64,000 bases of DNA from Escherichia coli (GTDB taxonomy: Bacteria > Pseudomonadota > Gammaproteobacteria > Enterobacterales > Enterobacteriaceae). Under the pieces are notes generated by a model. The model did no database searches. It was not told where the DNA came from and was given only the letters and a program-made list of their open reading frames with translations. Shown in pieces: positions 3,375 to 59,614 of this stretch. The stretch lies in NCBI RefSeq assembly GCF_050920415.1, contig NZ_CP169309.1; one strand, 5' to 3'. Made by a program: the position numbers and the translations under genes. Position 1 is the first letter of the stretch, and every line of letters begins with the position of its first letter.

Positions 3375-4167
<793 letters not shown>

Positions 4168-4171
<4 letters not shown>

Positions 4172-5338
4172 AACAGCTCCTCATAGGCACTCAACGGCCT
4201 GTGTTCCACCTGACTGACCTGCTGCCAGAGTGGGGCGTGATGCTCCGGCACGGTCTGCCAGCCGTATACAGCCGAACAGAGACGGTGCGATGCTACCTGT
4301 TGCTCATTACTGTAGATCCGCAGTTCATCATCCAGCGAGATCCGTATTGATACCGGCTGGCCACACAGGCTTTCCGGCACGCTGTAACGGTTCCCGCCAA
4401 CCTCGATATAGCCATCCCAGGAGACATGACGGATATCGAAGTAGCTGGTATCGAAGTCCGTACCTGGCAGCGCCTGCAGATGCACCTGTTCCTGCGTGAA
4501 GCGCTGTTCCGGTGTCTGCCTGAACTGGCGAAGTCCCGCCTGTCGGCAACGTCAGCCATCCACTGCTCCAGTAGCTGATTAACATGGGCGAAGCTGTCGA
4601 ACCGGCGGTACCGGACGAAGAAGTTTTCCTTGAGGTATTTCACCATCCGTTCCACCTTACCTTTGGTTCTGGCCCTTCGTGGACGGCAGGCCCGTGGCAG
4701 GAAGCCATAGTGATGGCCAGCAGCAGGAACCCGGAGTTGAACACCACCTTCCCGTTGTTATTTTTCAGCACTGCGGCTTTCTGGTTATCGACCAGCACGG
4801 TTTTCACGCTGCCGCCGAAGTAGCGAAAGGCGCGGACCAGTGACTCATAGGTATGTTCAGCATCCTGCTTTGGTGCCGCGAAGACATGGAAGCGACGTGA
4901 GAACCCCAGCGTATTAACCGCGAAGTTAACCCTGCATCGTTGCCCGGCAACCTCAGCCTCAACTTCTCCCCAGTCATGCTGTAGCTGGTAACCGGGCTGA
5001 GTTTCGAAGCGAACCGTTTTCTTCGATGGCCGCATCTTACGTTTGGGCTGGATGTAGTAACGCAACATGGAACGGCCACCGGTATAACCCATCGCTTTGA
5101 TTTCCGCCAGGATGACCTCGCCGTTCCAGACATTCTCAGCCAGACGCATGTCGATATAGTCCATGAACGGCTTGAGTTTGGCCATTTTGTGGCGTGTTTT
5201 TCTGGCCGGAGGTTCCGGGTATTTCAGGTACCGTCTGACAGTCCGCTCAGAGCAACCAACCTGAGTGGCAATATCAACAATATACGCACCTTGCTGGCGC
5301 ATTTGCTTTATCATGTAAAAGTCCTCTCTGCTCAGCAT
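4168..5338 (-). pseudogene. istA: istA (IS21 transposase) split by at least two frameshifts
   Basis: Three consecutive ORF fragments (4640-5338, 4293-4655, 4168-4485) together cover an IstA-like protein. Confidence 0.6.
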
Positions 5339-7230: not shown

Positions 7231-8993
7231 AAAATCTCCACAATATTGCTGGTATTGGCGGATTCGCCCTGCAGCGGTTCGTTAAACAGTGCGTGCATCG
7301 TTGCCCAGGCCAGATCGGCGTGGCTGGCTTCTTCGCTGCGGCTGGCTTCATAGGTCGGGCGGTTGCCACTGGCGGTGGTGGCGCGACGGATTGCCATAAA
7401 GGACTGCGCTATGTCGGTGTGTCCGGCGTCAAACTCCAGACGGCGGTGGCTGATAATGTCGTAGGCCTTGAGTACCAGGGCGTTTTTAACGTTGGGGTTG
7501 TAGACAAACTCCCGGACGGCAGGAAAAAACGCTTTCACGTTCTCGTAAACCCCGTGACCAACGCCGGTTGAGTCGATACCGATATAGGTCACGTTGTACT
7601 GTTCGGTCAGTTTTTTGATGGCGTCAGCCTGGGCGCGGAAGTCCATTCCGCGCCACTGGTGACGCTCAAGAATGCGGAACTTACCGCCCGGCACGGCTGG
7701 CGGCGCCACCACCACGCATCCGGCGCTGTCGCCGTTCTGCGTACCTTTCGCCGGGTCATATCCGATCCACACTTCGCGCCAGCCAAACGGGCGCAGGGCC
7801 AGTGCATGAAAGTCGGTCCAGACTTCCCAACTGTCCACCATGCACGCCTGCAGCTCGCTGAGCGGGAACACGGACGCGAGATCGTCCACGAACTCGCACA
7901 TCAGCAGGTTCTGGTATTCGTCCGGGCTGTACTCCATGCGCAACTGGTCAAGGTCGAACAGGTTACAGCCGCCGCGCACCGCATCTTCCACGGTGACTAT
8001 CTGGCGGTACTGCCCGTCTGCGCACAGCAGGCCGGGGGCCAGATTGCTGTGGGACAGGTCGATGTCCACCTTATCGGCTTTGTTGCGCCCTCGGTTGAAC
8101 AGCGCACCGGACCAGAACGGATAAGCACTGTGTGTCAGGCTGGATGGCGTGGAAAAATAGGTTTGTCGCCATTTTTTGTGAATAGCCATACCGGAAGCCA
8201 CTTTGCGCAGCTCCTGGAATTTCGGTATCCAGAAATATTCATCCAGATACAGGTTGCCGTGGTAACTCTGGGCCGTGCGGGCATTGGTGCCGAGGAAGTA
8301 AAGCGTGGCCCCGTTAGGAAGCACCATCGGATCGCCTTTCAGCTCCACCTCGACTTCTTTGGCGAAGTCGATGATGTACTGCTTAAAGACGTGGGCCTGT
8401 GCCTTACTGGCGGAAAGGAAAATCTGGTTACGTCCGGTCAGCAGGGCGTCAATCAGGGCTTCACGGGCAAAGTAAAAGGTCGCGCCGATCTGGCGAGACT
8501 TCAGCAGGTTGCGGATGCGATTGGTTTTTCCGGCTTCCCACCAGTGGCGCTGGTAGTTGAACATGGAGGAATGGAAGATTTCTTCCAGCTTCTCAATCTG
8601 TTCATCGGTGAAAACATTCTTTTCCGGCTGACGGCGCGGCCCTTTGTTGCGGTTGGCGACGTTAGGGTTTAAGTCGGCTTCGTTGCCGCCATTGTTAAAC
8701 TTGCCGATCCGCGCGTGGCGCTCCGACTGGCGCGCCAGCAGGTCAATTTCTTTGAAATCTTTCCCTTCTTTGTGCTCCTTCATAATGAGCTGGCAGTAGC
8801 GGGCGGCGGTGGTGAGCTGCATCTGATCCAGCGGCCCATAGTCACCCCACTTGTCGCGTTTTTTCCAGCTGTGAACGGTTGCAACTTTCTCGCCCAGCAT
8901 TTCAGCAATGCGGGCTACGCGGTATCCCTGAAAGTACAGCAGCATGGCCTGCCGACGGGGATCGAGATCTGCGGGTGTCAGTGTGGTGTTCAT
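7227..8993 (-). CDS. terminase large (ATPase) subunit (P2 gpP-like)
   Basis: 588 aa; P2 P-like; downstream of divergent late promoter region. Confidence 0.9.
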   Translation of the reverse strand: MNTTLTPADLDPRRQAMLLYFQGYRVARIAEMLGEKVATVHSWKKRDKWGDYGPLDQMQLTTAARYCQLIMKEHKEGKDFKEIDLLARQSERHARIGKFNNGGNEADLNPNVANRNKGPRRQPEKNVFTDEQIEKLEEIFHSSMFNYQRHWWEAGKTNRIRNLLKSRQIGATFYFAREALIDALLTGRNQIFLSASKAQAHVFKQYIIDFAKEVEVELKGDPMVLPNGATLYFLGTNARTAQSYHGNLYLDEYFWIPKFQELRKVASGMAIHKKWRQTYFSTPSSLTHSAYPFWSGALFNRGRNKADKVDIDLSHSNLAPGLLCADGQYRQIVTVEDAVRGGCNLFDLDQLRMEYSPDEYQNLLMCEFVDDLASVFPLSELQACMVDSWEVWTDFHALALRPFGWREVWIGYDPAKGTQNGDSAGCVVVAPPAVPGGKFRILERHQWRGMDFRAQADAIKKLTEQYNVTYIGIDSTGVGHGVYENVKAFFPAVREFVYNPNVKNALVLKAYDIISHRRLEFDAGHTDIAQSFMAIRRATTASGNRPTYEASRSEEASHADLAWATMHALFNEPLQGESANTSNIVEIF

Positions 8994-9038
8994 GGCACAA
9001 ACCTACAGCCTTGAATGAAGGCTTTCCCCGCCTGCGGT

Positions 9039-9056
9039 TTGTGTGGTTGTCGGTAC
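9039..9056. promoter_or_regulatory. Ogr/Delta-type late promoter activator box (TGT-N12-ACA) in divergent P/O promoter region
   Basis: tgt-gtggttgtcggt-aca in the 142 bp intergenic region between terminase and scaffold genes. Confidence 0.4.
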
Positions 9057-9135
9057 AAATACCGCGCATTGTTTCACTGCCCCCATCACCGCAACCATAA
9101 GGCTCCAGTAAGTTTTTTCTAACGGAGCACGGCTC

Positions 9136-14578: not shown

Positions 14579-15109
14579 TTACGCTCTTAATAAACTTAAA
14601 TAACTTTTTATGCTTTGGCAAAAAGGGAAAAGGTCTATTTTAATTTTCCAGTTTTTTTTGTTTTGAACCCCAGAAGCAATAATAGAACCGTCCCAATATT
14701 TTATTCCATTTTTGCCGGTCTTTTTTGTTAACTCAAAACTTAATGCGTGAATAATTTTATTGCAGCATTCGCGTATAGAATCTTTAACATGACCATCTAT
14801 AACAAAAAGTATATTTTCATGTTCTTCAAATGCTTCTTTCTCAGGTGAGTAATCTGGGTTCCACTCATGTTCACTAGTGTCTTGGAGAATTCGTAGTTTT
14901 GTACAAAGGCTAATAAGATTGTTGCTAATGGTATATTCCAACCATCCGTTGTACGATAACTCCTCCATTTCAAATTCAGTTACTATAGAACCATCATATA
15001 CTTTCTGTGTGGAATATATACGCTGTAAATAAAATTCAGATGAACAGCATAATTGCTCAATTATTCTTGCGTGTTCTTCTATAGCGTAATAATCAATTGG
15101 ATGGCTCAT
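14579..15109 (-). CDS. AT-rich orphan gene antisense to the late operon (176 aa, no recognised domain)
   Basis: ORF on minus strand between S and V; aaagg RBS before ATG (MSHPIDYY); markedly AT-rich; ends 5 bp from S stop. Confidence 0.55.
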   Translation of the reverse strand: MSHPIDYYAIEEHARIIEQLCCSSEFYLQRIYSTQKVYDGSIVTEFEMEELSYNGWLEYTISNNLISLCTKLRILQDTSEHEWNPDYSPEKEAFEEHENILFVIDGHVKDSIRECCNKIIHALSFELTKKTGKNGIKYWDGSIIASGVQNKKNWKIKIDLFPFCQSIKSYLSLLRA

Positions 15110-15140
15110 TCTTTTACCTTTCTTTGATTGGAATTGTATT

Positions 15141-15158
15141 TGTGTCATTTACCACACA
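15141..15158 (+). promoter_or_regulatory. Ogr/Delta-type late promoter box (TGT-N12-ACA) upstream of V
   Basis: tgt-gtcatttaccac-aca ~50 bp upstream of V start. Confidence 0.4.
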
Positions 15159-17034: not shown

Positions 17035-17632
17035 TCTGCTGCCACCGGGTTCAACTTCACTGGAGCGCCGACTGGCGCAAACCTGTAGCGGGATTTCTGA
17101 TCTGCAGGTGCCGCTGCGTGACTTGTGGAATCCGGCTACCTGTCCGGTCAGCTTCCTGCCTTATCTCGCCTGGGCGTTCTCTGTGGATCGCTGGGACGAG
17201 GGCTGGACAGAAAGCGTCAAACGCCAGGTAGTGAAGGATGCTTTTTATATTCATCAGCATAAAGGAACTACCAGTGCCGTGCGGCGGGTGGTGGAACCGT
17301 TCGGATTCCTGATCCGCATTATTGAGTGGTGGCAGACCGGAGAAACACCGGGCACGTTTCGCCTGGATATCGGCGTGCAGGACCAGGGCATCACTGAAGA
17401 TACCTATCTGGAACTTGAGCGGCTGATAAGCGATGCCAAACCATGTAGCCGTCACATGATCGGCATGTCCATCAATCTGCAGACCAGCGGTCCGCATTGG
17501 GTGGGGGCCGCCAGCTATCTTGGCGAAGAAATCACGATCTATCCGTATATCAACGAAACAATTATTTCCGGCGGCACCGCGCATGAAGGCGGGGCGGTCC
17601 ATGTTATTGACACAATGAGAGTGAATCCATGA
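17027..17632 (+). CDS. baseplate protein I (P2 gpI-like)
   Basis: 201 aa, overlaps J stop and H start. Confidence 0.8.
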   Translation: MNSLLPPGSTSLERRLAQTCSGISDLQVPLRDLWNPATCPVSFLPYLAWAFSVDRWDEGWTESVKRQVVKDAFYIHQHKGTTSAVRRVVEPFGFLIRIIEWWQTGETPGTFRLDIGVQDQGITEDTYLELERLISDAKPCSRHMIGMSINLQTSGPHWVGAASYLGEEITIYPYINETIISGGTAHEGGAVHVIDTMRVNP

Positions 17633-19026
17633 GCACAAAATTTTATACCCTGCTGACGGATATTGGCGCGGCGAAACTTGCCAGCGCCGCCGCGCTCGGT
17701 GTGCCGCTAAAAATTACCCATATGGCGGTGGGCGATGGCGGCGGAACATTGCCAACGCCGGACGCCAAGCAGACAGCATTGGTAAATGAGAAACGCCGGG
17801 CTGCGCTGAATATGCTCTATATCGACCCGCAGAACAGCAGCCAGATTATTGCTGAACAGGTGATCCCTGAAAACGAGGGCGGTTGGTGGATACGTGAAGT
17901 GGGCCTGTTTGATGAGTCCGGGGCATTGATTGCCGTGGGCAACTGCCCGGAAAGCTATAAGCCGCAACTGGCTGAAGGCAGCGGGCGTACCCAGACCGTG
18001 CGCATGGTGCTGATTACCAGCAGCACGGACAATATCACCCTGAAAATCGACCCTGCCGTAGTGCTGGCAACCCGCAAGTATGTGGATGACAAGGTACTGG
18101 AGCTGAAGGTGTACGTGGATGATCAGATGGCAAAACATCTTGCCGCACCGGACCCGCATTCACAGTATGCACCCAAAGAAAGTCCGACGTTTACCGGGAC
18201 ACCAAAAGCGCCAACTCCAGCGGCAGGGAATAACACCACGCAGGTTGCGACCACCGCGTTTGTTCAGGCGGCACTGACGGCTCTTATTAATGGTGCGCCA
18301 GCCACGCTGGACACGCTGAAAGAAATAGCCGCAGCCATTAACAATGATCCGAATTTCAGTACCACCATTAACAATGCGCTGGCACTGAAAGCGCCGTTGT
18401 CGAGTCCGGCACTCACCGGAACGCCAACAGCCCCCACTGCTGCACAGTCGGTCAACAATACACAGATTGCCACCACGGCTTTTGTGAAATCGGCGATTGC
18501 AGCAATGGTAGGTTCTGCACCTGCGGCACTGGATACACTGAACGAACTGGCGTCGGCGTTGGGGAATGATCCGAACTTTGCCACGACAATGCTTAATGCG
18601 CTGGCAGGTAAACAACCGCTGGACAATACGCTGACTAATTTGAGTGGAAAGGATGTCGCTGGTCTTCTCGCATACCTTGGTTTGGGGGAATTGGCTCTGG
18701 CTGGCGCAACAACCGGCGCTATGTTGGTGAATGGGTATGTAGCAATTCCATTAATTATTTCTGGCGTTCGGAGACCACTTATTATCCAGTGGGGAGTGGG
18801 GCAGTTTGGGGGAAGTCTGGGGGATGATGCGGGATATTTAAACAATTTCCCTTTCGCTTTTCCGTCGGCGTGCTACGTGATGGTTGCCAGCCACGTGGGG
18901 CATACACCTTCGGGTGCCGGAATACTATCTGCTTCCGCAATCACAAAAAGCGGCTTTCGTGGTTTTTCCAGCGTAGTGACTGCCGCAAATCCTGTATCGG
19001 GCTGTTATGTTGCTATAGGAGGGTGA
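17629..19026 (+). CDS. tail fibre protein H; C-terminal 112 codons lie inside an invertible segment
   Basis: 465 aa; conserved N-terminus (MSTKFYTLLTDIGAAK...); internal tandem repeats; recombination site within codons LLAYLGLGE. Confidence 0.85.
   Translation: MSTKFYTLLTDIGAAKLASAAALGVPLKITHMAVGDGGGTLPTPDAKQTALVNEKRRAALNMLYIDPQNSSQIIAEQVIPENEGGWWIREVGLFDESGALIAVGNCPESYKPQLAEGSGRTQTVRMVLITSSTDNITLKIDPAVVLATRKYVDDKVLELKVYVDDQMAKHLAAPDPHSQYAPKESPTFTGTPKAPTPAAGNNTTQVATTAFVQAALTALINGAPATLDTLKEIAAAINNDPNFSTTINNALALKAPLSSPALTGTPTAPTAAQSVNNTQIATTAFVKSAIAAMVGSAPAALDTLNELASALGNDPNFATTMLNALAGKQPLDNTLTNLSGKDVAGLLAYLGLGELALAGATTGAMLVNGYVAIPLIISGVRRPLIIQWGVGQFGGSLGDDAGYLNNFPFAFPSACYVMVASHVGHTPSGAGILSASAITKSGFRGFSSVVTAANPVSGCYVAIGG
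18181..18624 (+). repeat. two tandem ~222 bp (74 aa) repeats within tail fibre gene
   Basis: SPTFTGTPKAP...NDPNFSTT and SPALTGTPTAP...NDPNFATT segments are clearly homologous. Confidence 0.6.
18665..18690. repeat. Hin/Gin-type recombination crossover site (left, inside H)
   Basis: ttctcgcatacc-tt-ggtttgggggaa: imperfect 26 bp palindrome matching hix/gix-like sites; inverted copy at 20480-20505. Confidence 0.55.
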
Positions 19027-19027
19027 T

Positions 19028-19462
19028 GTGTTTTTTAGTCCATCTTTAAATATTTTTGTGAATCCTGCGCTTAAGGATGACTACATCAATGTAAATTCAT
19101 GGCCAGATGATGCTGTTGAAGTTGATGAGCAGGTGTATATTGAGTTTTCCGGATTACCGCCGAAAGGAAAAATCCGTATCGCTGGGGAAAATGGTTTTCC
19201 TGCATGGTCTGAAATTCCACCACCAACGCATGAGGAACAGATTGCCGCAGCCGAATTGAAAAAACAGCAATTGATTAATCAGTCCAACGAATATATGAAT
19301 ACCAAGCAATGGCCTGGTAAAGCGGCTATTGGTCGTCTGAAAGGTGAGGAACTGGCGCAATATAATTTGTGGCTGGATTATCTGGACGCACTGGAACTGG
19401 TTGATACCTCCAGTGCTCCAGATATTGAATGGCCTACGCCTCCGGCAGTTCAGGCCAGATGA
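19028..19462 (+). CDS. tail fibre assembly chaperone (P2 gpG-like), active orientation
   Basis: 144 aa directly after H stop. Confidence 0.8.
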   Translation: MFFSPSLNIFVNPALKDDYINVNSWPDDAVEVDEQVYIEFSGLPPKGKIRIAGENGFPAWSEIPPPTHEEQIAAAELKKQQLINQSNEYMNTKQWPGKAAIGRLKGEELAQYNLWLDYLDALELVDTSSAPDIEWPTPPAVQAR

Positions 19463-20027
19463 CATCCGGCGCGGTGCTCGTATCTGTTGCCGTCACCGCG
19501 TCAATGTAATCAAGCACGGCGTTAAGCCGGGTGGTTTCTGCCTGCGTCAGCTTCCGCCCGGCCTGTAATTTCAGCTGAATCAGACTGATGGAAGCCATTG
19601 CAGCATCAATCAGTGACTGGCGCTGTGCTTCTGCCGCTTCTACTGCGGCACCGTGTTGTGCCTCAGTATCTGTCACCCATTTCTCACCATCCCATTTATC
19701 GTATGGCGTTAACGGTGAAAGCGTGACATAACCGTCTTTGATGGCACCGATATAATCCACTGTAACAGCAGCACCATTTTCGATTGAGTAAACAGTCTCA
19801 TTGCGATGGTCTTCTTCATGGCTCCATCCCTTACCTGTAAATACTGCCACTCTTCCCGGAATGTTTTCGCCAGGGTCAATACCAGTTGAACAGGCGGGCA
19901 TACTTACGCCAGTATTAATATATTCATCAGACCAGCCCGTATACTCAGATGTTTCAGCATCATAATAAAAACAACGCATATCACCCGGCACTGTAGCCAG
20001 CCCATTTTCATCAAAAACAGGTTTCAT
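19434..20027 (-). CDS. alternative tail fibre assembly chaperone (for inverted orientation)
   Basis: 197 aa minus-strand ORF inside invertible segment; C-terminus resembles the + strand chaperone (DYIDAV/LDYLDAL, IWPELP/IEWPTP). Confidence 0.75.
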   Translation of the reverse strand: MKPVFDENGLATVPGDMRCFYYDAETSEYTGWSDEYINTGVSMPACSTGIDPGENIPGRVAVFTGKGWSHEEDHRNETVYSIENGAAVTVDYIGAIKDGYVTLSPLTPYDKWDGEKWVTDTEAQHGAAVEAAEAQRQSLIDAAMASISLIQLKLQAGRKLTQAETTRLNAVLDYIDAVTATDTSTAPDVIWPELPEA

Positions 20028-20492
20028 TATGCAGCCCTCACAATATAATTAAAGGCGATGTTACGTGGACGGTTTTCATTAGCTGTTGGCACGACACGAG
20101 AGGCGTCGAATCCAAGGTCATCGGTTTTGTCTATAGTAGTTGTGTTATTCGGCATTCTCGCTGATCGTGTTCCTGCATCGTAAAAAGCCCCTCTGATTGC
20201 ATCAAAAGACATACCGATCCCGCCATCTGCGAATCCCTCAATATTTCTTATTGCATCCCCCTGTGAAGATAATAATTGTCGCCCGGCATCCACTCCACGT
20301 CCGTCATCCCAGCCACGAATAAATTCACCGCGTAAATCAGGCAATTTATTTTTCGGATAAACCTTTGCCAGTTCCGGGTATTCTTCAGCAGAAAAAGCCG
20401 CACCGTTGCATTTCAGCCAGCCAGTAGGCGGTGTGGCTGAAGGCCACGGAACAGGCACACCAACGGGTAATGCTGAACCTTCTCCCAAACCA
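20027..20492 (-). CDS. alternative tail fibre C-terminal cassette (promoterless; expressed only after inversion)
   Basis: Minus-strand frame open through right crossover site; contains Mu S'/P1-type fibre tip motif LPDLRGEFIRGWDDGRGVDAGR. Confidence 0.7.
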
Positions 20493-20505
20493 ACGTTTAT
20501 GAAAA
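20480..20505. repeat. Hin/Gin-type recombination crossover site (right)
   Basis: ttctcccaaacc-aa-cgtttatgaaaa; inverted relative to site at 18665-18690; 55 bp upstream of invertase gene. Confidence 0.55.
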
Positions 20506-20560
20506 TGCAGAGATAACGGCTAACTGGCATCATCTCCGGTTTTTATTCAGGGGGATGATC

Positions 20561-21127
20561 ATGCTTATTGGCTATGTACGCGTGTCAACAAATGACCAGA
20601 ACACCGATTTGCAACGTAATGCACTGAACTGCGCGGGATGTGAGCGGATTTTTGAGGATAAAATCAGTGGCACTAAGTCCGACAGACCGGGGCTGAAAAA
20701 GCTGCTCAGGACACTATCGGCAGGAGACACGCTGGTTGTCTGGAAGCTGGACAGGTTGGGGCGCAGTATGCGGCATCTTGTTACGCTGATAGAGGAGTTG
20801 CGCCAGCGTGGTGTGAATTTCCGAAGCCTGACTGACAGTATTGATACCAGTACCCCAATGGGCCGTTTCTTTTTTCATGTCATGGGTGCCCTGGCTGAAA
20901 TGGAACGCGAACTGATAGTTGAACGTACCAGGGCAGGGCTGGCTGCAGCTCGTGCCAAAGGCAGAGTAGGTGGACGCCGTCCTAAGTTGACCACCGAACA
21001 GTGGGCACAGATTGGGCGTTTACTCGAGGCCGGAGAATCAAGACAGCGTATTGCACTGATTTTTGATGTGGGTGTTTCCACAATTTATAGAAAATTTCCG
21101 GCAAATAAGAGTAATGAATCCCCCTGA
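20561..21127 (+). CDS. site-specific DNA invertase, serine recombinase (Hin/Gin/Cin/Pin family)
   Basis: N-terminus MLIGYVRVSTNDQNTDLQRNAL with catalytic Ser; resolvase fold plus C-terminal HTH (GVSTIYRKF). Confidence 0.85.
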   Translation: MLIGYVRVSTNDQNTDLQRNALNCAGCERIFEDKISGTKSDRPGLKKLLRTLSAGDTLVVWKLDRLGRSMRHLVTLIEELRQRGVNFRSLTDSIDTSTPMGRFFFHVMGALAEMERELIVERTRAGLAAARAKGRVGGRRPKLTTEQWAQIGRLLEAGESRQRIALIFDVGVSTIYRKFPANKSNESP

Positions 21128-21175
21128 ATCAGCATTATTTTGATTATCCCTGCAAGTAGACAAATACCGTCATTT

Positions 21176-21193
21176 TGTGTGAATAACGGTACA
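21176..21193 (+). promoter_or_regulatory. Ogr/Delta-type late promoter box (TGT-N12-ACA) upstream of sheath gene
   Basis: tgt-gtgaataacggt-aca ~75 bp upstream of FI start. Confidence 0.4.
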
Positions 21194-21269: not shown

Positions 21270-22442
21270 ATGGCTCAGGATTACCACCACGGGGTGCGCG
21301 TTGTTGAAGTCAACGAAGGCACCCGATCCATTACCACGGTGAGCACCGCCATCGTGGGCATGGTCTGCACGGGCGATGATGCCGATGCAAAAATGTTTCC
21401 TCTTAACAAACCTGTGCTGATCACTGATGTGCTGACTGCCAGCGGTAAAGCGGGTGAGTCCGGCACGCTGGCCCGTTCGCTGGATGCCATCGCTGACCAG
21501 GCAAAACCCGTGACCGTTGTTGTGCGTGTGCCGCAGGGTGAAACGGAAGAAGAAACCACGACCAATATCATCGGCGCAGTGACTGCTGAAGGTAAAAAAA
21601 CAGGCATGAAAGCTCTGTTATCTGCCCAGTCACAGCTCGGCGTTAAACCGCGCATTCTCGGCGTGCCAGGTCACGATAACAAAGCCGTTGCGACTGAGTT
21701 GCTGAGCGTGGCGCAAAGCCTGCGTGGGTTTGCTTACCTGTCAGCGTATGGCTGCAAGACGGTACAGGAGGCGATCACTTACCGTGAAAACTTCAGCCAG
21801 CGCGAAGGAATGCTGATCTGGCCCGACTTTACTGGCTGGGACACGGTGCTGAATGCCGAAGCAACGGCATATGCCACCGCCCGTGCACTTGGTCTGCGTG
21901 CCAAAATTGATGAGCAGACCGGGTGGCACAAAAGCCTGTCCAACGTGGGCGTGAACGGTGTCACCGGAATTTCTGCAGATGTGTTCTGGGATCTGCAGGA
22001 CCCGGCAACCGATGCAGGTCTGCTGAACCAGAACGACGTCACCACGCTTGTGCGTAAAGACGGTTTCCGCTTCTGGGGTTCCCGCTGTCTGAGCGATGAT
22101 CCGCTTTTTGCCTTCGAAAACTACACCCGCACGGCGCAGGTGCTGACGGACACAATGGCAGAAGCACACATGTGGGCGGTGGATAAACCGCTTAACCCGT
22201 CGCTGGCCCGCGACATTATCGAAGGTATCCGCGCCAAAATACGCAGCCTGGTCAGTCAGGGCTATCTCATTGGTGGTGATTGCTGGCTGGATGAGTCGGT
22301 GAACGACAAAGACACGCTGAAAGCCGGAAAACTCACCATCGACTATGACTACACGCCAGTGCCGCCACTTGAAAATCTGATGCTGCGCCAGCGCATCACC
22401 GATCAGTACCTGGTGAATTTCGCCAGCCAGGTCAGCGCGTAA
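21270..22442 (+). CDS. contractile tail sheath protein (P2 gpFI-like)
   Basis: 390 aa, P2 FI-like. Confidence 0.9.
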
Positions 22443-29026: not shown

Positions 29027-29389
29027 TGGTGGAGCTGGCGGGAGTTGAACCCGCGTCCGAAATTCCTACATCCTCGGTACTACATGCTTAGTCAGTCTTT
29101 ACATTCGCTTGCCAGCTGCGGACGGACACGCCACTAACAAACTAGCCTGATTAAGTTTTAACGCTTCAACCCCAGGCAGGGCTTCCACGCGATCTCTTTT
29201 GGGTTTGACCTCTCTTGATCCCCGTCCTAAGAGCGGAGGCTAGGGAGAGAGGGCTCTAAGCAGGTTATTAAGCTGCTAAAGCGTAGTTTTCGTCGTTTGC
29301 GACTATTTTTTGCGGCTTTTTACGAGGCCAACCGCCCCTCGGCATGCACCTTGGGTTTCGCAAATCCCGTCGAATCCAGAATCAGCCCC
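29027..29389 (-). ncRNA. ssrA: tmRNA (SsrA), 363 nt
   Basis: Reverse complement matches E. coli tmRNA from GGGGCUGAUUCUGG 5' end to GCCAGCUCCACCA 3' end, including tag-encoding region. Confidence 0.95.
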
Positions 29390-47126: not shown

Positions 47127-47153
47127 AGTGTTGCCTTTTTGTTATCAATAAAA

Positions 47154-47178
47154 AAGGCCCCCCGGTTTGGGAGGCCTT
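47154..47178 (-). terminator. pheA attenuator terminator
   Basis: On minus strand aaggcctccc-aaac-cggggggcctttttt between pheL and pheA. Confidence 0.6.
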
Positions 47179-47223
47179 ATTGTTCGTCTTCGCATTCTGT
47201 TTCACACGACGAAACGCCTCCCA

Positions 47224-47271
47224 TTCAGGGGAAGGTAAAAAAGAATGCGAAGAAAAACGGTGTGTGTTTCA
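47224..47271 (-). CDS. pheL: pheA leader peptide
   Basis: Minus strand ATG AAA CAC ACA CCG TTT TTC TTC GCA TTC TTT TTT ACC TTC CCC TGA = MKHTPFFFAFFFTFP. Confidence 0.85.
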
Positions 47272-47326
47272 TGTTTGTTTCCTTAAGTGACTTTAGTACA
47301 GTACCCGTACTGTTTTCACGCTGTCA

Positions 47327-51390: not shown

Positions 51391-51451
51391 CCTAAAGAAT
51401 CAAGACGATCCGGTACGCGTGATTTTCTTTTCACATTAATCTGGTCAATAA

Positions 51452-51482
51452 CCTTGAATAATTGAGGGATGACCTCATTTAA
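51452..51482 (+). promoter_or_regulatory. sigma32 heat-shock promoter of clpB
   Basis: CCTTGAA -35 and GACCTCATTTA -10-like element ~40 bp upstream of clpB. Confidence 0.5.
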
Positions 51483-51519
51483 TCTCCAGTAGCAACTTTG
51501 ATCCGTTATGGGAGGAGTT

Positions 51520-54093
51520 ATGCGTCTGGATCGTCTTACTAATAAATTCCAGCTTGCTCTTGCCGATGCCCAATCACTTGCACTCGGGCACGACAACCAA
51601 TTCATCGAACCACTTCATTTAATGAGCGCCCTGCTGAATCAGGAAGGGGGTTCGGTTAGTCCTTTATTAACATCCGCCGGCATCAATGCTGGTCAGTTGC
51701 GCACAGATATCAATCAGGCATTAAATCGTTTACCGCAGGTTGAAGGCACTGGTGGCGATGTCCAGCCCTCACAGGATCTGGTGCGCGTTCTTAATCTTTG
51801 CGACAAGCTGGCGCAAAAACGTGGTGATAACTTTATCTCGTCAGAACTGTTCGTTCTGGCGGCACTTGAGTCTCGCGGCACGCTGGCCGACATCCTGAAA
51901 GCAGCAGGGGCGACCACCGCCAACATTACTCAAGCGATTGAACAAATGCGTGGAGGTGAAAGCGTGAACGATCAAGGAGCTGAAGACCAACGTCAGGCTT
52001 TGAAAAAATACACTATCGACCTCACCGAACGAGCCGAACAAGGCAAACTCGATCCGGTGATTGGCCGTGATGAAGAAATTCGCCGTACCATTCAGGTACT
52101 GCAACGTCGTACTAAAAATAACCCGGTGCTGATTGGTGAACCAGGCGTTGGTAAAACAGCCATCGTTGAAGGTCTGGCTCAGCGTATTATCAATGGCGAA
52201 GTACCGGAAGGGCTGAAAGGCCGCCGCGTACTGGCGCTGGATATGGGCGCGCTGGTGGCCGGGGCGAAATATCGCGGTGAGTTTGAAGAACGTTTAAAAG
52301 GCGTGCTTAACGATCTCGCCAAACAGGAAGGCAACGTCATCCTGTTTATCGACGAATTACATACCATGGTCGGTGCGGGTAAAGCCGATGGCGCAATGGA
52401 TGCCGGCAACATGCTGAAACCGGCGCTGGCGCGTGGTGAATTGCACTGCGTAGGTGCCACGACGCTTGACGAATATCGCCAGTACATCGAAAAAGATGCT
52501 GCGCTGGAACGTCGTTTCCAGAAAGTGTTTGTTGCCGAGCCTTCTGTTGAAGACACCATTGCTATTCTGCGTGGCCTGAAAGAACGTTACGAACTGCACC
52601 ACCATGTGCAAATTACTGACCCGGCAATTGTTGCAGCGGCGACGTTGTCTCATCGCTACATTGCTGACCGTCAGTTGCCGGATAAAGCCATCGACCTGAT
52701 CGATGAAGCAGCATCCAGCATTCGTATGCAGATTGACTCAAAACCAGAAGAACTCGACCGACTCGATCGTCGTATCATCCAGCTCAAACTGGAACAACAG
52801 GCGTTAATGAAAGAGTCTGATGAAGCCAGTAAAAAACGCCTGGATATGCTCAACGAAGAACTGAGCGACAAAGAACGTCAGTATTCCGAGTTAGAAGAAG
52901 AGTGGAAAGCTGAGAAAGCGTCGCTTTCTGGTACGCAGACCATTAAAGCGGAACTGGAACAGGCGAAAATCGCCATTGAACAGGCTCGCCGTGTGGGTGA
53001 TCTGGCGCGGATGTCTGAACTGCAATATGGCAAAATTCCAGAACTGGAAAAGCAACTGGAAGCCGCAACGCAGCTCGAAGGCAAAACTATGCGTCTCTTG
53101 CGTAATAAAGTGACCGACGCCGAAATTGCTGAAGTGCTGGCGCGTTGGACGGGGATTCCGGTTTCTCGCATGATGGAAAGCGAGCGCGAAAAACTGCTGC
53201 GTATGGAGCAAGAACTGCACCATCGCGTTATTGGTCAGAACGAAGCGGTTGATGCGGTATCTAACGCTATTCGTCGTAGCCGTGCGGGGCTTGCGGATCC
53301 AAATCGCCCGATTGGTTCATTCCTGTTCCTTGGCCCAACTGGTGTGGGTAAAACTGAGCTTTGTAAGGCGCTGGCGAACTTTATGTTTGATAGCGACGAG
53401 GCGATGGTCCGTATCGATATGTCCGAGTTTATGGAGAAACACTCGGTGTCTCGTCTGGTTGGTGCGCCTCCGGGATATGTCGGTTATGAAGAAGGTGGCT
53501 ACCTGACCGAAGCGGTGCGTCGTCGTCCGTATTCCGTCATCCTGCTGGATGAAGTGGAAAAAGCGCATCCGGATGTCTTCAACATTCTGTTGCAGGTACT
53601 GGATGATGGACGTCTGACTGACGGGCAGGGGAGAACGGTCGACTTCCGTAATACGGTTGTCATTATGACCTCTAACCTAGGTTCCGATTTGATTCAGGAA
53701 CGCTTCGGTGAACTGGATTATGCGCACATGAAAGAGCTGGTACTCGGTGTGGTAAGCCATAACTTCCGTCCGGAATTCATTAACCGTATCGATGAAGTGG
53801 TGGTCTTCCATCCGCTGGGTGAACAGCACATTGCGTCGATTGCGCAGATTCAGTTGAAACGTCTGTACAAACGTCTGGAAGAACGTGGTTATGAAATCCA
53901 CATTTCTGACGAGGCGCTGAAACTGCTGAGCGAGAACGGTTACGATCCGGTCTATGGTGCACGTCCTCTGAAACGTGCTATCCAGCAGCAGATCGAAAAC
54001 CCGCTGGCACAGCAAATACTGTCTGGTGAATTGGTTCCGGGTAAAGTTATTCGCCTGGAAGTTAATGAAGACAGGATTGTCGCCGTCCAGTAA
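51520..54093 (+). CDS. clpB: disaggregase chaperone ClpB
   Basis: 857 aa from ATG 51520 ([11 protein letters not shown]); two AAA+ modules. Confidence 0.95.
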
Positions 54094-54535: not shown

Positions 54536-56070
<1,535 letters not shown>

Positions 56071-56242
56071 CCTTAAAGAACTGTTCTTTGCAGTGCTCAC
56101 ACAGATTGTCTGATGAAAAGTGAATAGCAAGGCGTTTACGCGTTGGGAGTGAGGCTGAAGAGAATAAGGCCGTTCGCTTTCTGTTAATGAAAGCTCACCC
56201 TACACGAAAATATCACGCAGCGCGTGATAAGCAATTTTCGTG

Positions 56243-56318
56243 TCCCCTTCGTCTAGAGGCCCAGGACACCGCCCTTTCACGGCGGTAACAGGGGTTCGAA
56301 TCCCCTAGGGGACGCCAC
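56243..56318 (+). tRNA. gltW: tRNA-Glu (UUC) in 16S-23S spacer
   Basis: gtccccttcgtctagaggcccaggacaccgccctttcacggcggtaacaggggttcgaatcccctaggggacgcca. Confidence 0.95.
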
Positions 56319-56501
56319 TTGCTGGTTTGTGAGTGAAAGTCGCCGACCTTGATATCGTTAAAGATGACTTACGAGTCATGTTTAAGATATTTGCTCTTTA
56401 AAAATCTGGATCAAGCTGAAAATTGAAACACTGAACAACGAAAGTTGTTCGTGAGTCTCTCAAATTTTCGCAATCAGAAGTGAAACATCTTCGGGTTGTG
56501 A

Positions 56502-59401
<2,900 letters not shown>

Positions 59402-59494
59402 ACAACGCCGAAGATGTTTTGGCGGATTGAGAGAAGATTTTCAGCCTGATACAGATTAAATCAGAACGCAGAAGCGGTCTGATGAAACAGAATT

Positions 59495-59614
59495 TGCCTG
59501 GCGGCCTTAGCGCGGTGGTCCCACCTGACCCCATGCCGAACTCAGAAGTGAAACGCCGTAGCGCCGATGGTAGTGTGGGGTCTCCCCATGCGAGAGTAGG
59601 GAACTGCCAGGCAT
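59495..59614 (+). rRNA. rrf: 5S ribosomal RNA
   Basis: TGCCTGGCGGCC...GGAACTGCCAGGCAT, 120 nt. Confidence 0.95.

What the first reader, a model, noticed from the sequence alone, without database searches (positions are those of the whole stretch)
18665..21127. Hin/Gin-type invertible tail-fibre switch in a P2-like tail module
Two 26-bp imperfect palindromes in inverted orientation bracket ~1.8 kb containing the H C-terminus + chaperone on one strand and an alternative C-terminus + chaperone on the other. Both sites encode GLGE in the fibre reading frame so either orientation fuses in frame. A serine invertase gene follows immediately. The alternative tip has the conserved Mu S'/P1-type motif, so host range probably alternates between two receptor specificities. 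This occupies the G-FI slot where P2 has Z/fun.
Basis: seen in the sequence. Interest (0 to 1): 0.5.

Follow-up and report, generated by a model that had tools for sequence, protein, structure and literature searches.

The report
Pin/Fin-type invertible tail-fibre switch

Summary
Two 26-bp imperfect palindromes (18665-18690 and 20480-20505) lie in inverted orientation. They are the only matches to the hix/gix/cix consensus in the 64-kb window (0 expected by chance). They bracket tip A plus chaperone on the + strand and tip B plus chaperone on the - strand. Flipping in silico at the central TT/AA gives an in-frame 504-aa fibre. The adjacent 188-aa serine invertase is 87% identical to e14 PinE, 86% to Fels-2 Fin, 79% to P1 Cin and 75% to Mu Gin. 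It keeps the residues linked to Fis/enhancer activation. Its nt 19-90 are homologous to the annotated P1 cin enhancer.

Near-identical prophages carry the segment in either orientation, with breakpoints at the site centres and reciprocal half-site exchange. Among IMG/VR relatives the split is 33:33.

One detail is wrong. Tip B has no detectable similarity to Mu S/S', P1 S/Sv' or P2 H. It is a Collar-domain tip, 60% identical to e14 StfE.

Fels-2 has the same architecture, related loci are already annotated, and inversion in P2-like prophages is published. Verdict: already known, low interest. Inversion in this strain and the host-range effect are inferred.

The parts
17629..18676 (+). Constant N-terminal part of tail-fibre gene H, outside the invertible segment (about 349 codons up to the crossover).
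   Evidence: Pfam Phage_tail_fib PF12571 on residues 1-150, E 6e-65. 84% identical to Fels-2 H over residues 1-259. Similar to P2 H, E 2e-67.
18665..18690 (.). Left crossover site, a 26-bp imperfect palindrome with core TT at 18677-18678. It codes ...A-Y-L-G-L-G-E in the H frame.
   Evidence: Same layout as Mu gixL/gixR and P1 cixL/cixR read from their records. The P1 record places the crossover in the central dinucleotide.
18679..19026 (+). Tip A: the fibre C-terminus fused to H in the present orientation (H = 465 aa).
   Evidence: Pfam Gp53-like_C PF21882 on residues 384-464, E 4e-11. 39% identical to the variable part of e14 StfP. 100% identical DNA in E. coli DE17.
19028..19462 (+). tfaA: tail-fibre assembly chaperone paired with tip A (144 aa, GTG start).
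   Evidence: phrog_188 tail fiber assembly protein, E 1.5e-61. 58% identical to e14 TfaP. Annotated as such in L001.
19434..20027 (-). tfaB: chaperone paired with tip B (197 aa). Its 3' end overlaps the 3' end of tfaA by 29 nt, convergently.
   Evidence: phrog_105 tail fiber assembly, E 1.6e-84. 64% identical to e14 TfaE.
20027..20491 (-). Tip B: the silent alternative fibre C-terminus. After inversion it is fused in frame to H, giving 504 aa. The mechanical ORF runs on to an ATG at 20533, outside the segment.
   Evidence: In-silico flip. Pfam Collar PF07484, E 1.5e-13. phrog_523 tail collar fiber protein, E 7e-79. 60% identical to e14 StfE.
20480..20505 (.). Right crossover site, core AA at 20492-20493, 81 nt upstream of the invertase ATG.
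   Evidence: Identical in sequence to the right site of the e14 P segment. A site with core AA sits at this same offset in nearly all of 80 related loci.
20522..20541 (+). Weak terminator-like hairpin followed by a T-run, between the right site and the invertase. It may limit read-through from the fibre operon. Inferred only.
   Evidence: Consensus scan. The stem is not well conserved in relatives.
20561..21127 (+). Small serine DNA invertase, 188 aa (ORF open from 20555). The catalytic Ser9 context VRVSTNDQ is intact.
   Evidence: E 8e-93 to the Mu Gin structure 3uj3, aligned full length without gaps. 86.7% identical to PinE, 86.3% to Fin, 79% to Cin, 75% to Gin. phrog_125 DNA invertase, E 1e-101.
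20579..20650 (.). Putative Fis-dependent recombinational enhancer inside the 5' end of the invertase gene (nt 19-90).
   Evidence: Homologous to the 'enhancer of Cin-mediated C-segment inversion' annotated at nt 19-90 of cin in NC_005856. 56/72 identical to P1 and 52/72 to Mu, against 68% and 66% for the rest of the gene. Fewer synonymous changes in codons 6-33. The site-to-block distance is 95.5-96.5 bp in the window, e14 and Mu, and the same arithmetic on the Fels-2 coordinates gives 95.5. Fis binding was not tested.
21176..21193 (+). TGT-N12-ACA dyad 77-94 nt upstream of FI, marking the start of the next late operon and so the right boundary of the inserted module. Context only.
   Evidence: It sits at the same relative position as the 'activator binding site' of pF in the P2 record. 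The motif count in the whole window is no higher than chance; only the position is informative.

Best explanation
This is a two-state, site-specific DNA inversion switch of the Pin/Fin/Cin/Gin/Hin type. It sits in a Cartapus/Fels-2-like (P2-family) prophage of E. coli. The invertase (20561-21127) binds the two 26-bp sites as dimers. Together with host Fis bound to an enhancer inside the 5' end of its own gene, it assembles an invertasome, cuts both sites at the central TT/AA dinucleotide, and rejoins them after subunit rotation. This flips the 1.8-kb segment between the sites. The constant part of fibre gene H and its late promoter stay outside the segment. In the present orientation H ends in tip A (Gp53-like C-terminal domain) and is followed by chaperone tfaA. 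After inversion H ends in tip B (Collar domain, StfE-like) and is followed by chaperone tfaB. A lysogen population would therefore release two kinds of virions with different receptor-binding tips. Shown here: the sites, the frames, the identity of the invertase, and both orientations in near-identical relatives with breakpoints at the site centres. Inferred: Fis dependence, inversion in this particular strain, and different receptor specificity of the two tips.
For: Sites: the consensus is matched only twice in 64 kb, with 0 expected. The sites are in inverted orientation with matching cores TT/AA. Frames: an in-frame 504-aa fusion results after the flip. Enzyme: E 8e-93 to the Gin structure, and 75-87% identical to Gin, Cin, Fin and PinE. 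The equivalents of Hin K47/R48/K51 and Q151/R154/L155 are present; McLean et al. 2013 (PMC3798978) report these as conserved among Fis/enhancer-dependent invertases. Enhancer: homology to the annotated P1 cin enhancer, with conserved spacing to the site. Natural inversions: L001 versus L002 (98.8% identical) are collinear in the flanks, and the segment is inverted exactly between the site centres with reciprocal exchange of the inner half-sites. The same holds for L022/L023 (99.6-99.9%), L021/L053 and L008/L024. In E. coli complete genomes, 15 match the window orientation and 21 the flipped construct at 80% coverage or more. In IMG/VR relatives the split is 33:33. Architecture: identical to Fels-2 and to the e14 P segment, whose right site has the same sequence. 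Literature: read-level phase variation in P2-like prophages of EPEC (PMC4272514), and an invertase with inverted neighbours noted in the P2 Z/fun hotspot (bioRxiv 10.1101/2024.10.15.618418).
Against: There are no reads from this strain, so inversion here is not observed directly. No sigma-70-like promoter for the invertase was found by the simple scan. Fis sites are inferred by homology only. The excess conservation of the enhancer stretch is modest (78% against 68%), and the sequences compared are not independent. Receptor specificities of tips A and B are unknown.
Confidence: 0.9

Rival explanations
1. Fossil switch: the parts are all present, but the segment no longer inverts in this prophage. 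The invertase might be silent, or the sites too diverged, so the fibre would be fixed with tip A.
For: The outer half-sites are rather diverged from each other (7/12). No invertase promoter was detected. Only one orientation is seen in this single assembly.
Against: The invertase ORF is intact and 99-100% identical to those of dozens of relatives. The right site is identical to the e14 site. PMC4272514 reports that the e14 segment inverts. Prophages 98.8-99.9% identical to each other differ by the orientation of their segment alone, which implies recent inversions. The silent cassette has no stops or frameshifts.
Confidence: 0.06
2. The switch mainly serves the lysogen as an anti-phage device. 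The flipped form would make an StfE-like chimeric fibre protein that blocks adsorption of other phages, as reported for the e14 P segment inverted by PinQ. Varying the phage's own host range would be secondary.
For: The cassettes are homologous to those of e14: tip B is 60% identical to StfE and tfaB 64% identical to TfaE. PMC12529663 reports that the inverted e14 P segment yields StfE2, which blocks T2 adsorption.
Against: Here the module sits in an apparently complete tail operon of a prophage 99.3% identical to Cartapus over 81% of the 25 kb compared. Cartapus DNA is released from LF82 cultures, though no virions were seen by electron microscopy and no propagating host was found (PMC9928086). 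H would be transcribed from an activator-dependent late promoter, as in P2, so little expression is expected in a lysogen. This last point is an inference from P2 biology.
Confidence: 0.08
3. The two orientations seen in relatives arise from RecA-dependent homologous recombination between the short inverted repeats, not from the invertase.
For: None specific. Inverted repeats can in principle recombine.
Against: The repeats share only about 16 contiguous near-identical bases. The breakpoints fall at the centre of sites that match the invertase consensus. A dedicated invertase is always adjacent, at a fixed distance.
Confidence: 0.01

Closest known systems
P segment / PinE of the cryptic prophage e14 (E. 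coli K-12)
   Same: The invertase is 86.7% identical. The right crossover site has the identical sequence. The layout is the same: fibre N-terminus outside the segment, tip plus chaperone on each strand, a convergent 29-nt overlap of the two chaperone genes, and the invertase downstream. The segment is about 1.8 kb in both. Tip B/StfE are 60% identical, tfaB/TfaE 64%, tfaA/TfaP 58% and tip A/StfP 39%.
   Different: e14 is a defective lambdoid remnant with a truncated fibre gene. Here the switch sits in a complete P2-type tail operon with a 349-codon constant H part. The cassettes are diverged (39-64% identity).
Fin invertase and invertible fibre segment of Salmonella phage Fels-2 (Felsduovirus, Peduoviridae)
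   Same: Same phage family and same slot: H, G-like, G-like on the opposite strand, partial H-like on the opposite strand, invertase, FI. The invertase is 86.3% identical and the H N-terminus 84%. The site-to-enhancer spacing is the same. Fin is cited as a functional DNA invertase in PMC12529663.
   Different: The Fels-2 sites have core TC/GA, like gix, rather than TT/AA. Its segment is larger (about 2.7 kb between sites) and carries different tips.
G segment / Gin of phage Mu and C segment / Cin of phage P1
   Same: Same enzyme family (75% and 79% identity). The 26-bp sites have the same half-site consensus. The enhancer lies in the 5' end of the invertase gene. The principle is the same: a constant fibre N-terminus with two alternative C-termini and chaperones.
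   Different: The tips are unrelated to Mu S/S' and P1 S/Sv'. The Mu constant part is short (169 codons) and its segment is 3 kb. In P1, cin lies on the other side of the segment, with cixL at its 3' end. The phage families also differ.
Invertible tail-fibre loci in P2-like prophages of EPEC E2348/69 (Goldberg et al. 2014, PMC4272514)
   Same: These are P2-like prophages in which read mapping shows a fibre segment co-existing in two orientations. One of the two loci is a simple two-state switch like this one.
   Different: The other EPEC locus is a three-site shufflon with four variants. The window has only two sites. I did not compare sequences with those loci.

Membership tests
Fis/enhancer-dependent DNA invertases (Hin/Gin/Cin/Pin/Fin subfamily of small serine recombinases) | Protein of about 190 aa with an N-terminal serine-recombinase catalytic domain (active-site Ser9/10) and a C-terminal helix-turn-helix domain | tested here: met
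   Full-length gap-free alignment to Gin structures 3uj3 and 4m6f (E 8e-93), with the VRVSTNDQ context intact. The C-terminal domain aligns to the Hin DNA-binding domain 1hcr, E 4e-10. phrog_125 DNA invertase, E 1e-101.
Fis/enhancer-dependent DNA invertases (Hin/Gin/Cin/Pin/Fin subfamily of small serine recombinases) | Close sequence relationship to experimentally characterised invertases, closer than to resolvases | tested here: met
   86.7% identical to PinE, 86.3% to Fin, 79% to Cin and 75% to Gin. Gamma-delta and Tn3 resolvases score far lower, E 1e-34 to 1e-28.
Fis/enhancer-dependent DNA invertases (Hin/Gin/Cin/Pin/Fin subfamily of small serine recombinases) | Two 26-bp imperfectly palindromic crossover sites in inverted orientation, with identical central dinucleotides | tested here: met
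   The cores are TT and AA on the + strand, the same as in the cix sites. The half-sites match those of gix and cix read from the Mu and P1 records.
Fis/enhancer-dependent DNA invertases (Hin/Gin/Cin/Pin/Fin subfamily of small serine recombinases) | Residues that mediate Fis/enhancer activation: Hin Lys47, Lys/Arg48 and Lys/Arg51 in helix B, and Gln151, Arg154 and Leu155 in the DNA-binding domain (PMC3798978) | tested here: met
   Helix B reads G-L-K-K-L-L-R, giving K, K and R at the three positions. The DNA-binding domain alignment to 1hcr puts Q, R and L opposite Hin 151, 154 and 155. The Hin numbering of 1hcr (chain residue 1 = 139) and of helix B comes from my own knowledge.
Fis/enhancer-dependent DNA invertases (Hin/Gin/Cin/Pin/Fin subfamily of small serine recombinases) | A cis-acting recombinational enhancer with two Fis sites, in the 5' part of the invertase gene about 100 bp from the nearest site | tested here: inconclusive
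   Nt 19-90 are homologous to the enhancer annotated in the P1 record: 78% against 68% identity. Synonymous changes are fewer there. The 95.5-96.5 bp spacing is conserved in the window, e14 and Mu, and by the same arithmetic in Fels-2. Fis binding itself cannot be tested with these tools.
Fis/enhancer-dependent DNA invertases (Hin/Gin/Cin/Pin/Fin subfamily of small serine recombinases) | The segment actually inverts | tested here: met
   Met at the population level only. Four pairs of near-identical prophages differ by an inversion with breakpoints at the site centres and reciprocal half-site exchange. Orientation counts are 15 against 21 E. coli genomes and 33 against 33 viral contigs. Not testable for this strain without reads.
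Invertible tail-fibre segments (Mu G, P1 C, e14 P, Fels-2) | Constant fibre N-terminus and promoter outside the segment, with two oppositely oriented sets of variable C-terminus plus cognate chaperone inside, both fusing in frame | tested here: met
   The best BLASTP E-values are 1.4-2.9. The tips are instead homologous to e14 StfE and StfP.
Multi-site shufflon-type inversion systems (p15B Min; EPEC P2-like shufflon) | Three or more crossover sites giving more than two arrangements | tested here: not met
   Only two sites are found at up to 3 mismatches in the whole window. Some relatives do have 3-4 sites (L060, L065).
P2-like (Peduoviridae) tail module | Gene order V-W-J-I-H-G ... FI-FII-E-T-U-D, with an accessory slot between G and FI | tested here: met
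   Matching annotations in L001 and Cartapus. The P2 record has fun(Z) in the slot. The prophage is 99.3% identical to Cartapus over 81% of 25 kb.

The most novel reading that the evidence does not exclude
In the lysogen the switch might do more than vary the phage's host range. The flipped state would make an H-StfE-like Collar-tip protein that, as reported for e14 StfE2, could interfere with adsorption of T-even phages. The prophage invertase could also act in trans on other Pin-type segments in the same chromosome, coupling several switches. A separate minor possibility concerns the perfect 12-nt inverted repeat that brackets the invertase ORF. It might pair the Shine-Dalgarno region with the 3' end of the mRNA and so throttle invertase translation.
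Probability: 0.08. Interest if true: 0.4.

Novelty: already known. Interest (0 to 1): 0.1.

Why it matters
For this strain, it means the prophage can probably release virions with two different receptor-binding tips, which is useful to know for host-range or phage-typing work. It also explains why annotation pipelines call 'partial' or orphan tail-fibre genes here. It adds nothing new to the biology of DNA inversion. The same module is described in e14 and Fels-2, is annotated in related E. coli genomes and phage records, and has been seen switching in sequencing reads of P2-like prophages.

Tried and rejected
1. Homology of tip B, and in one comparison tip A, to Mu S/S', P1 S/Sv' and P2 H: no significant BLASTP match. 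The 'Mu S'/P1 motif' reading is dropped.

2. A shufflon with extra sites: none found at up to 3 mismatches. A tighter core pattern found only the right site.

3. The 12-nt perfect inverted repeat bracketing the invertase ORF (20545-20556 / 21118-21129). About one such repeat is expected by chance in 5.5 kb. It is kept, with some non-compensated changes, in close relatives. Its 3' arm is absent in the group at about 78% nucleotide identity, whose genes end differently. I treat it as probably fortuitous or lineage-specific.

4. Sigma-70 promoter scan for the invertase: nothing on the + strand near 20480-20560, and total counts are no higher than in shuffles.

5. NCBIfam gave no family for the fibre and chaperone proteins. 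For the invertase it gave only hits to other serine recombinase families, all below their cut-offs.

6. The synonymous-site profile for the enhancer shows a trend only. The sequences are related, so I claim no statistic.

7. Kutsukake et al. 2006 (PMC1347348), on Fin, is not held in the library. Fin's activity is cited second-hand from PMC12529663.

8. TGT-N12-ACA late-promoter dyads: the total count equals chance, so only the positions are used.
Full report
**What is in the sequence.** The region holds a tail-fibre gene H (17629-19026, +, 465 aa) and a 144-aa ORF (19028-19462, +). On the minus strand are a 197-aa ORF (19434-20027) and a 168-aa ORF (20027-20533). A 188/190-aa ORF follows (20561 or 20555 to 21127, +), then the tail sheath gene (21270-22442).

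It runs 18665-18690 and 20480-20505, with 26-nt arms, 20/26 complementary, and 1789 nt between the arms.

Written as half-site, core, half-site, the sites are TTCTCGCATACC-TT-GGTTTGGGGGAA and TTCTCCCAAACC-AA-CGTTTATGAAAA. Each is an imperfect palindrome. I built a consensus from what I recalled of the hix/gix/cix sites and compared it with the Mu and P1 sites read from their records: TTNTCNNAAACCNNGGTTTNNGANAA. Allowing 3 mismatches, it matches these two places and nowhere else in 64 kb. None of 100 dinucleotide-preserving shuffles gave any match.

**Frames.** Both sites read G-L-G-E in the fibre frame. Reverse-complementing 18677-20493, that is, crossing over in the central dinucleotide, gives an uninterrupted 504-aa fibre. 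It is followed directly by the 197-aa ORF in the sense orientation.

**What the parts are.**

- The constant part of H has the Phage_tail_fib N-terminal domain (E 6e-65). It resembles P2 H (E 2e-67) and Fels-2 H (84% over 259 residues).
- The present tip (A) has a Gp53-like C-terminal domain.
- The silent tip (B) has a Collar domain.
- The two small ORFs are tail-fibre assembly chaperones: phrog_188 at E 1.5e-61 and phrog_105 at E 1.6e-84.
- The last ORF is a small serine recombinase. It aligns end to end without gaps to the Mu Gin crystal structures (E 8e-93). It is 86.7% identical to e14 PinE, 86.3% to Fels-2 Fin, 79% to P1 Cin and 75% to Mu Gin.

**Comparison with the classical systems.** The Mu and P1 sites have the same half-site pattern. 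The P1 record places the crossover in the central dinucleotide. The window shares its TT/AA core with cix.

The P1 record annotates the Cin enhancer at nt 19-90 of cin. The homologous stretch here is 20579-20650. It is 78% identical to P1 and 72% to Mu, against 68% and 66% for the rest of the gene. Codons 6-33 show fewer synonymous changes than the rest in comparisons with diverged relatives. That is only a trend, because the sequences are related.

The distance from the centre of the nearest site to the first conserved block (GTRTCAACAAATGAC) is 96.5 bp here and 95.5 bp in e14 and Mu. The same arithmetic on the Fels-2 coordinates gives 95.5 bp. This is close to the roughly 100 bp quoted for hixL and its proximal Fis site (PMC3798978).

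That paper also names residues that are conserved in Fis/enhancer-dependent invertases but not in resolvases: Hin 47, 48 and 51, and 151, 154 and 155. All have the expected residues here. Fis binding itself is inferred.

**Does the segment invert?** I have no reads for this strain, so I used natural variation.

- E. coli DE17 (L001) and MFDS1006657 (L002) carry the same prophage, 98.8% identical. The flanks are collinear and the segment is inverted. The inverted alignment starts and ends at position 13 of each 26-bp site.
- The inner half-sites differ by one base (GGGGGAA against GGGAGAA), and that marker is exchanged reciprocally between the two genomes.
- Three more pairs among IMG/VR contigs show the same pattern, one at 99.6-99.9% identity.
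- In complete E. coli genomes, 15 match the window's arrangement and 21 match my flipped construct over at least 80% of 3.7 kb.
- Among 68 viral contigs with recognisable homologues of the window's cassettes, 33 have them in the window's orientation, 33 in the opposite one, and 2 are mixed.
- In 64 of the 83 loci scanned (the 80 viral contigs plus L001-L003) there are exactly two sites. A TT-core site lies 1.1-2.8 kb upstream of an AA-core site, which sits at a fixed 81 nt (80 nt in three loci) before the invertase ATG.

**Context.** The host is E. coli. The prophage is 99.3% identical to phage Cartapus of strain LF82 over 81% of the first 25 kb. In Cartapus the flanks of the switch are 99.9-100% identical but the cassettes differ, and the invertase is annotated as a 'Mu phage Gin invertase homolog'. 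The paper that named Cartapus describes it as P2-related and close to Fels-2 (PMC9928086).

Fels-2 has the same gene order: H, G-like, G-like on the opposite strand, partial H-like on the opposite strand, invertase, FI. Its invertase Fin is cited as able to invert the Salmonella H segment (PMC12529663).

**Closest known system.** The cassettes are homologues of the e14 P segment: tip B/StfE 60% identical, tfaB/TfaE 64%, tfaA/TfaP 58%, tip A/StfP 39%. The right site is identical to the e14 right site.

The conserved motif it saw (PVPWP...GWLKCNG) belongs to the Collar domain.

**Mechanism.**

- Shown: the sites, the frames, the enzyme family, and recurrent inversion at the site centres in relatives.
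- Inferred from the well-studied Hin/Gin/Cin systems: invertase dimers on the two sites and Fis on the enhancer form an invertasome. Double-strand cuts with 2-nt overhangs at TT/AA, followed by subunit rotation, invert the segment. Late transcription of H then yields fibre tip A with TfaA, or tip B with TfaB, and hence two adsorption specificities.

**Literature and novelty.** Read-level phase variation of fibre segments in P2-like prophages of EPEC was published in 2014 (PMC4272514). A survey of P2-like hotspots notes invertases with inverted neighbouring genes in the Z/fun hotspot (bioRxiv 10.1101/2024.10.15.618418). Together with e14 Pin and Fels-2 Fin, this makes the finding an already known kind. 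The only particular feature is the cassette combination: tip A and tfaA as in DE17, and a tip B 97% identical to those of L060 and L064.

**Rivals.** A frozen switch is possible but unlikely, given intact parts and recent inversions in near-identical relatives. RecA-mediated inversion is very unlikely. A host-defence role like that reported for e14 StfE2 is not excluded, but nothing here supports it. Interest is low.

Noticed in passing
window 20545-20556 and 21118-21129: A perfect 12-nt inverted repeat (ATTCAGGGGGAT / ATCCCCCTGAAT) brackets the invertase ORF. It covers the Shine-Dalgarno region at one end and the last codons plus stop at the other. Close relatives keep it with some uncompensated changes. 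Relatives at about 78% nucleotide identity lack the 3' arm. It is probably chance or lineage-specific, but long-range mRNA pairing that limits translation is not excluded.
   Followed up: partly
window 19434-19462: The two chaperone genes converge and overlap by 29 nt, so the same DNA encodes both conserved C-terminal ends (…EWPTPPAVQAR and …VIWPELPEA). The same 29-nt overlap is annotated in E. coli DE17 and MFDS1006657, in Cartapus and in e14 (tfaP/tfaE). In Mu, U and U' are instead separated by 28 nt.
   Followed up: partly
window 20506-20533 (- strand): The ORF of the silent tip stays open past the right site to ATG ATG at 20533/20530, preceded by GGAG. In relatives, pipelines annotate the silent cassette as a free-standing gene ('gp53-like domain-containing protein', L002) or as a partial pseudogene (L001). 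Whether the orphan ORF is ever expressed is unknown.
   Followed up: no
L060 (sites at 50, 1881, 3459, 5200) and L065 (sites at 332, 2014, 3920): Some relatives with a 98%-identical invertase carry three or four crossover sites. These are multi-inversion (shufflon-like) versions of the same module.
   Followed up: no
E. coli ERP001, NZ_CP063214.1 4984962-4988682 and 20435-24151: One assembly holds the module in both orientations, at two places about 26 kb apart across the start of the circular record (hits H35 and H73). This could be two tandem P2-like prophages, or an assembly duplication caused by mixed orientations in the culture.
   Followed up: no
window 8982-8999, 9040-9057, 15141-15158, 21176-21193: TGT-N12-ACA dyads sit in front of the P, O, V and FI gene positions, where P2 has its activator-dependent late promoters. 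The total count in the window is no higher than chance, so only the positions are suggestive.
   Followed up: partly
window 29027-29389 (- strand): The tmRNA gene ssrA (tag ANDENYALAA) lies about 120 nt beyond the last prophage-side ORF. It is probably the attachment site of this prophage. The integrase end of the prophage would lie off the left edge of the window.
   Followed up: no
window 14579-15148 (- strand): A 189-aa ORF on the opposite strand sits between the tail-completion genes and baseplate gene V. It matches only phrog_18838, of unknown function (E 6e-136). It is a candidate accessory gene (moron).
   Followed up: no
window 3375-5338 (- strand): ORFs here resemble a transposase (phrog_1157) and a DnaC/IstB-like helper (phrog_3277, phrog_50), and look fragmented. 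This may be an IS21-type remnant in the accessory region between the replication genes and the portal gene.
   Followed up: no
window 47148-47273, 51401-51539, 54536-59612: Ordinary chromosomal RNA features lie outside the prophage: the Phe leader, the RyfD sRNA, and a complete rRNA operon with tRNA-Glu in the spacer.
   Followed up: no
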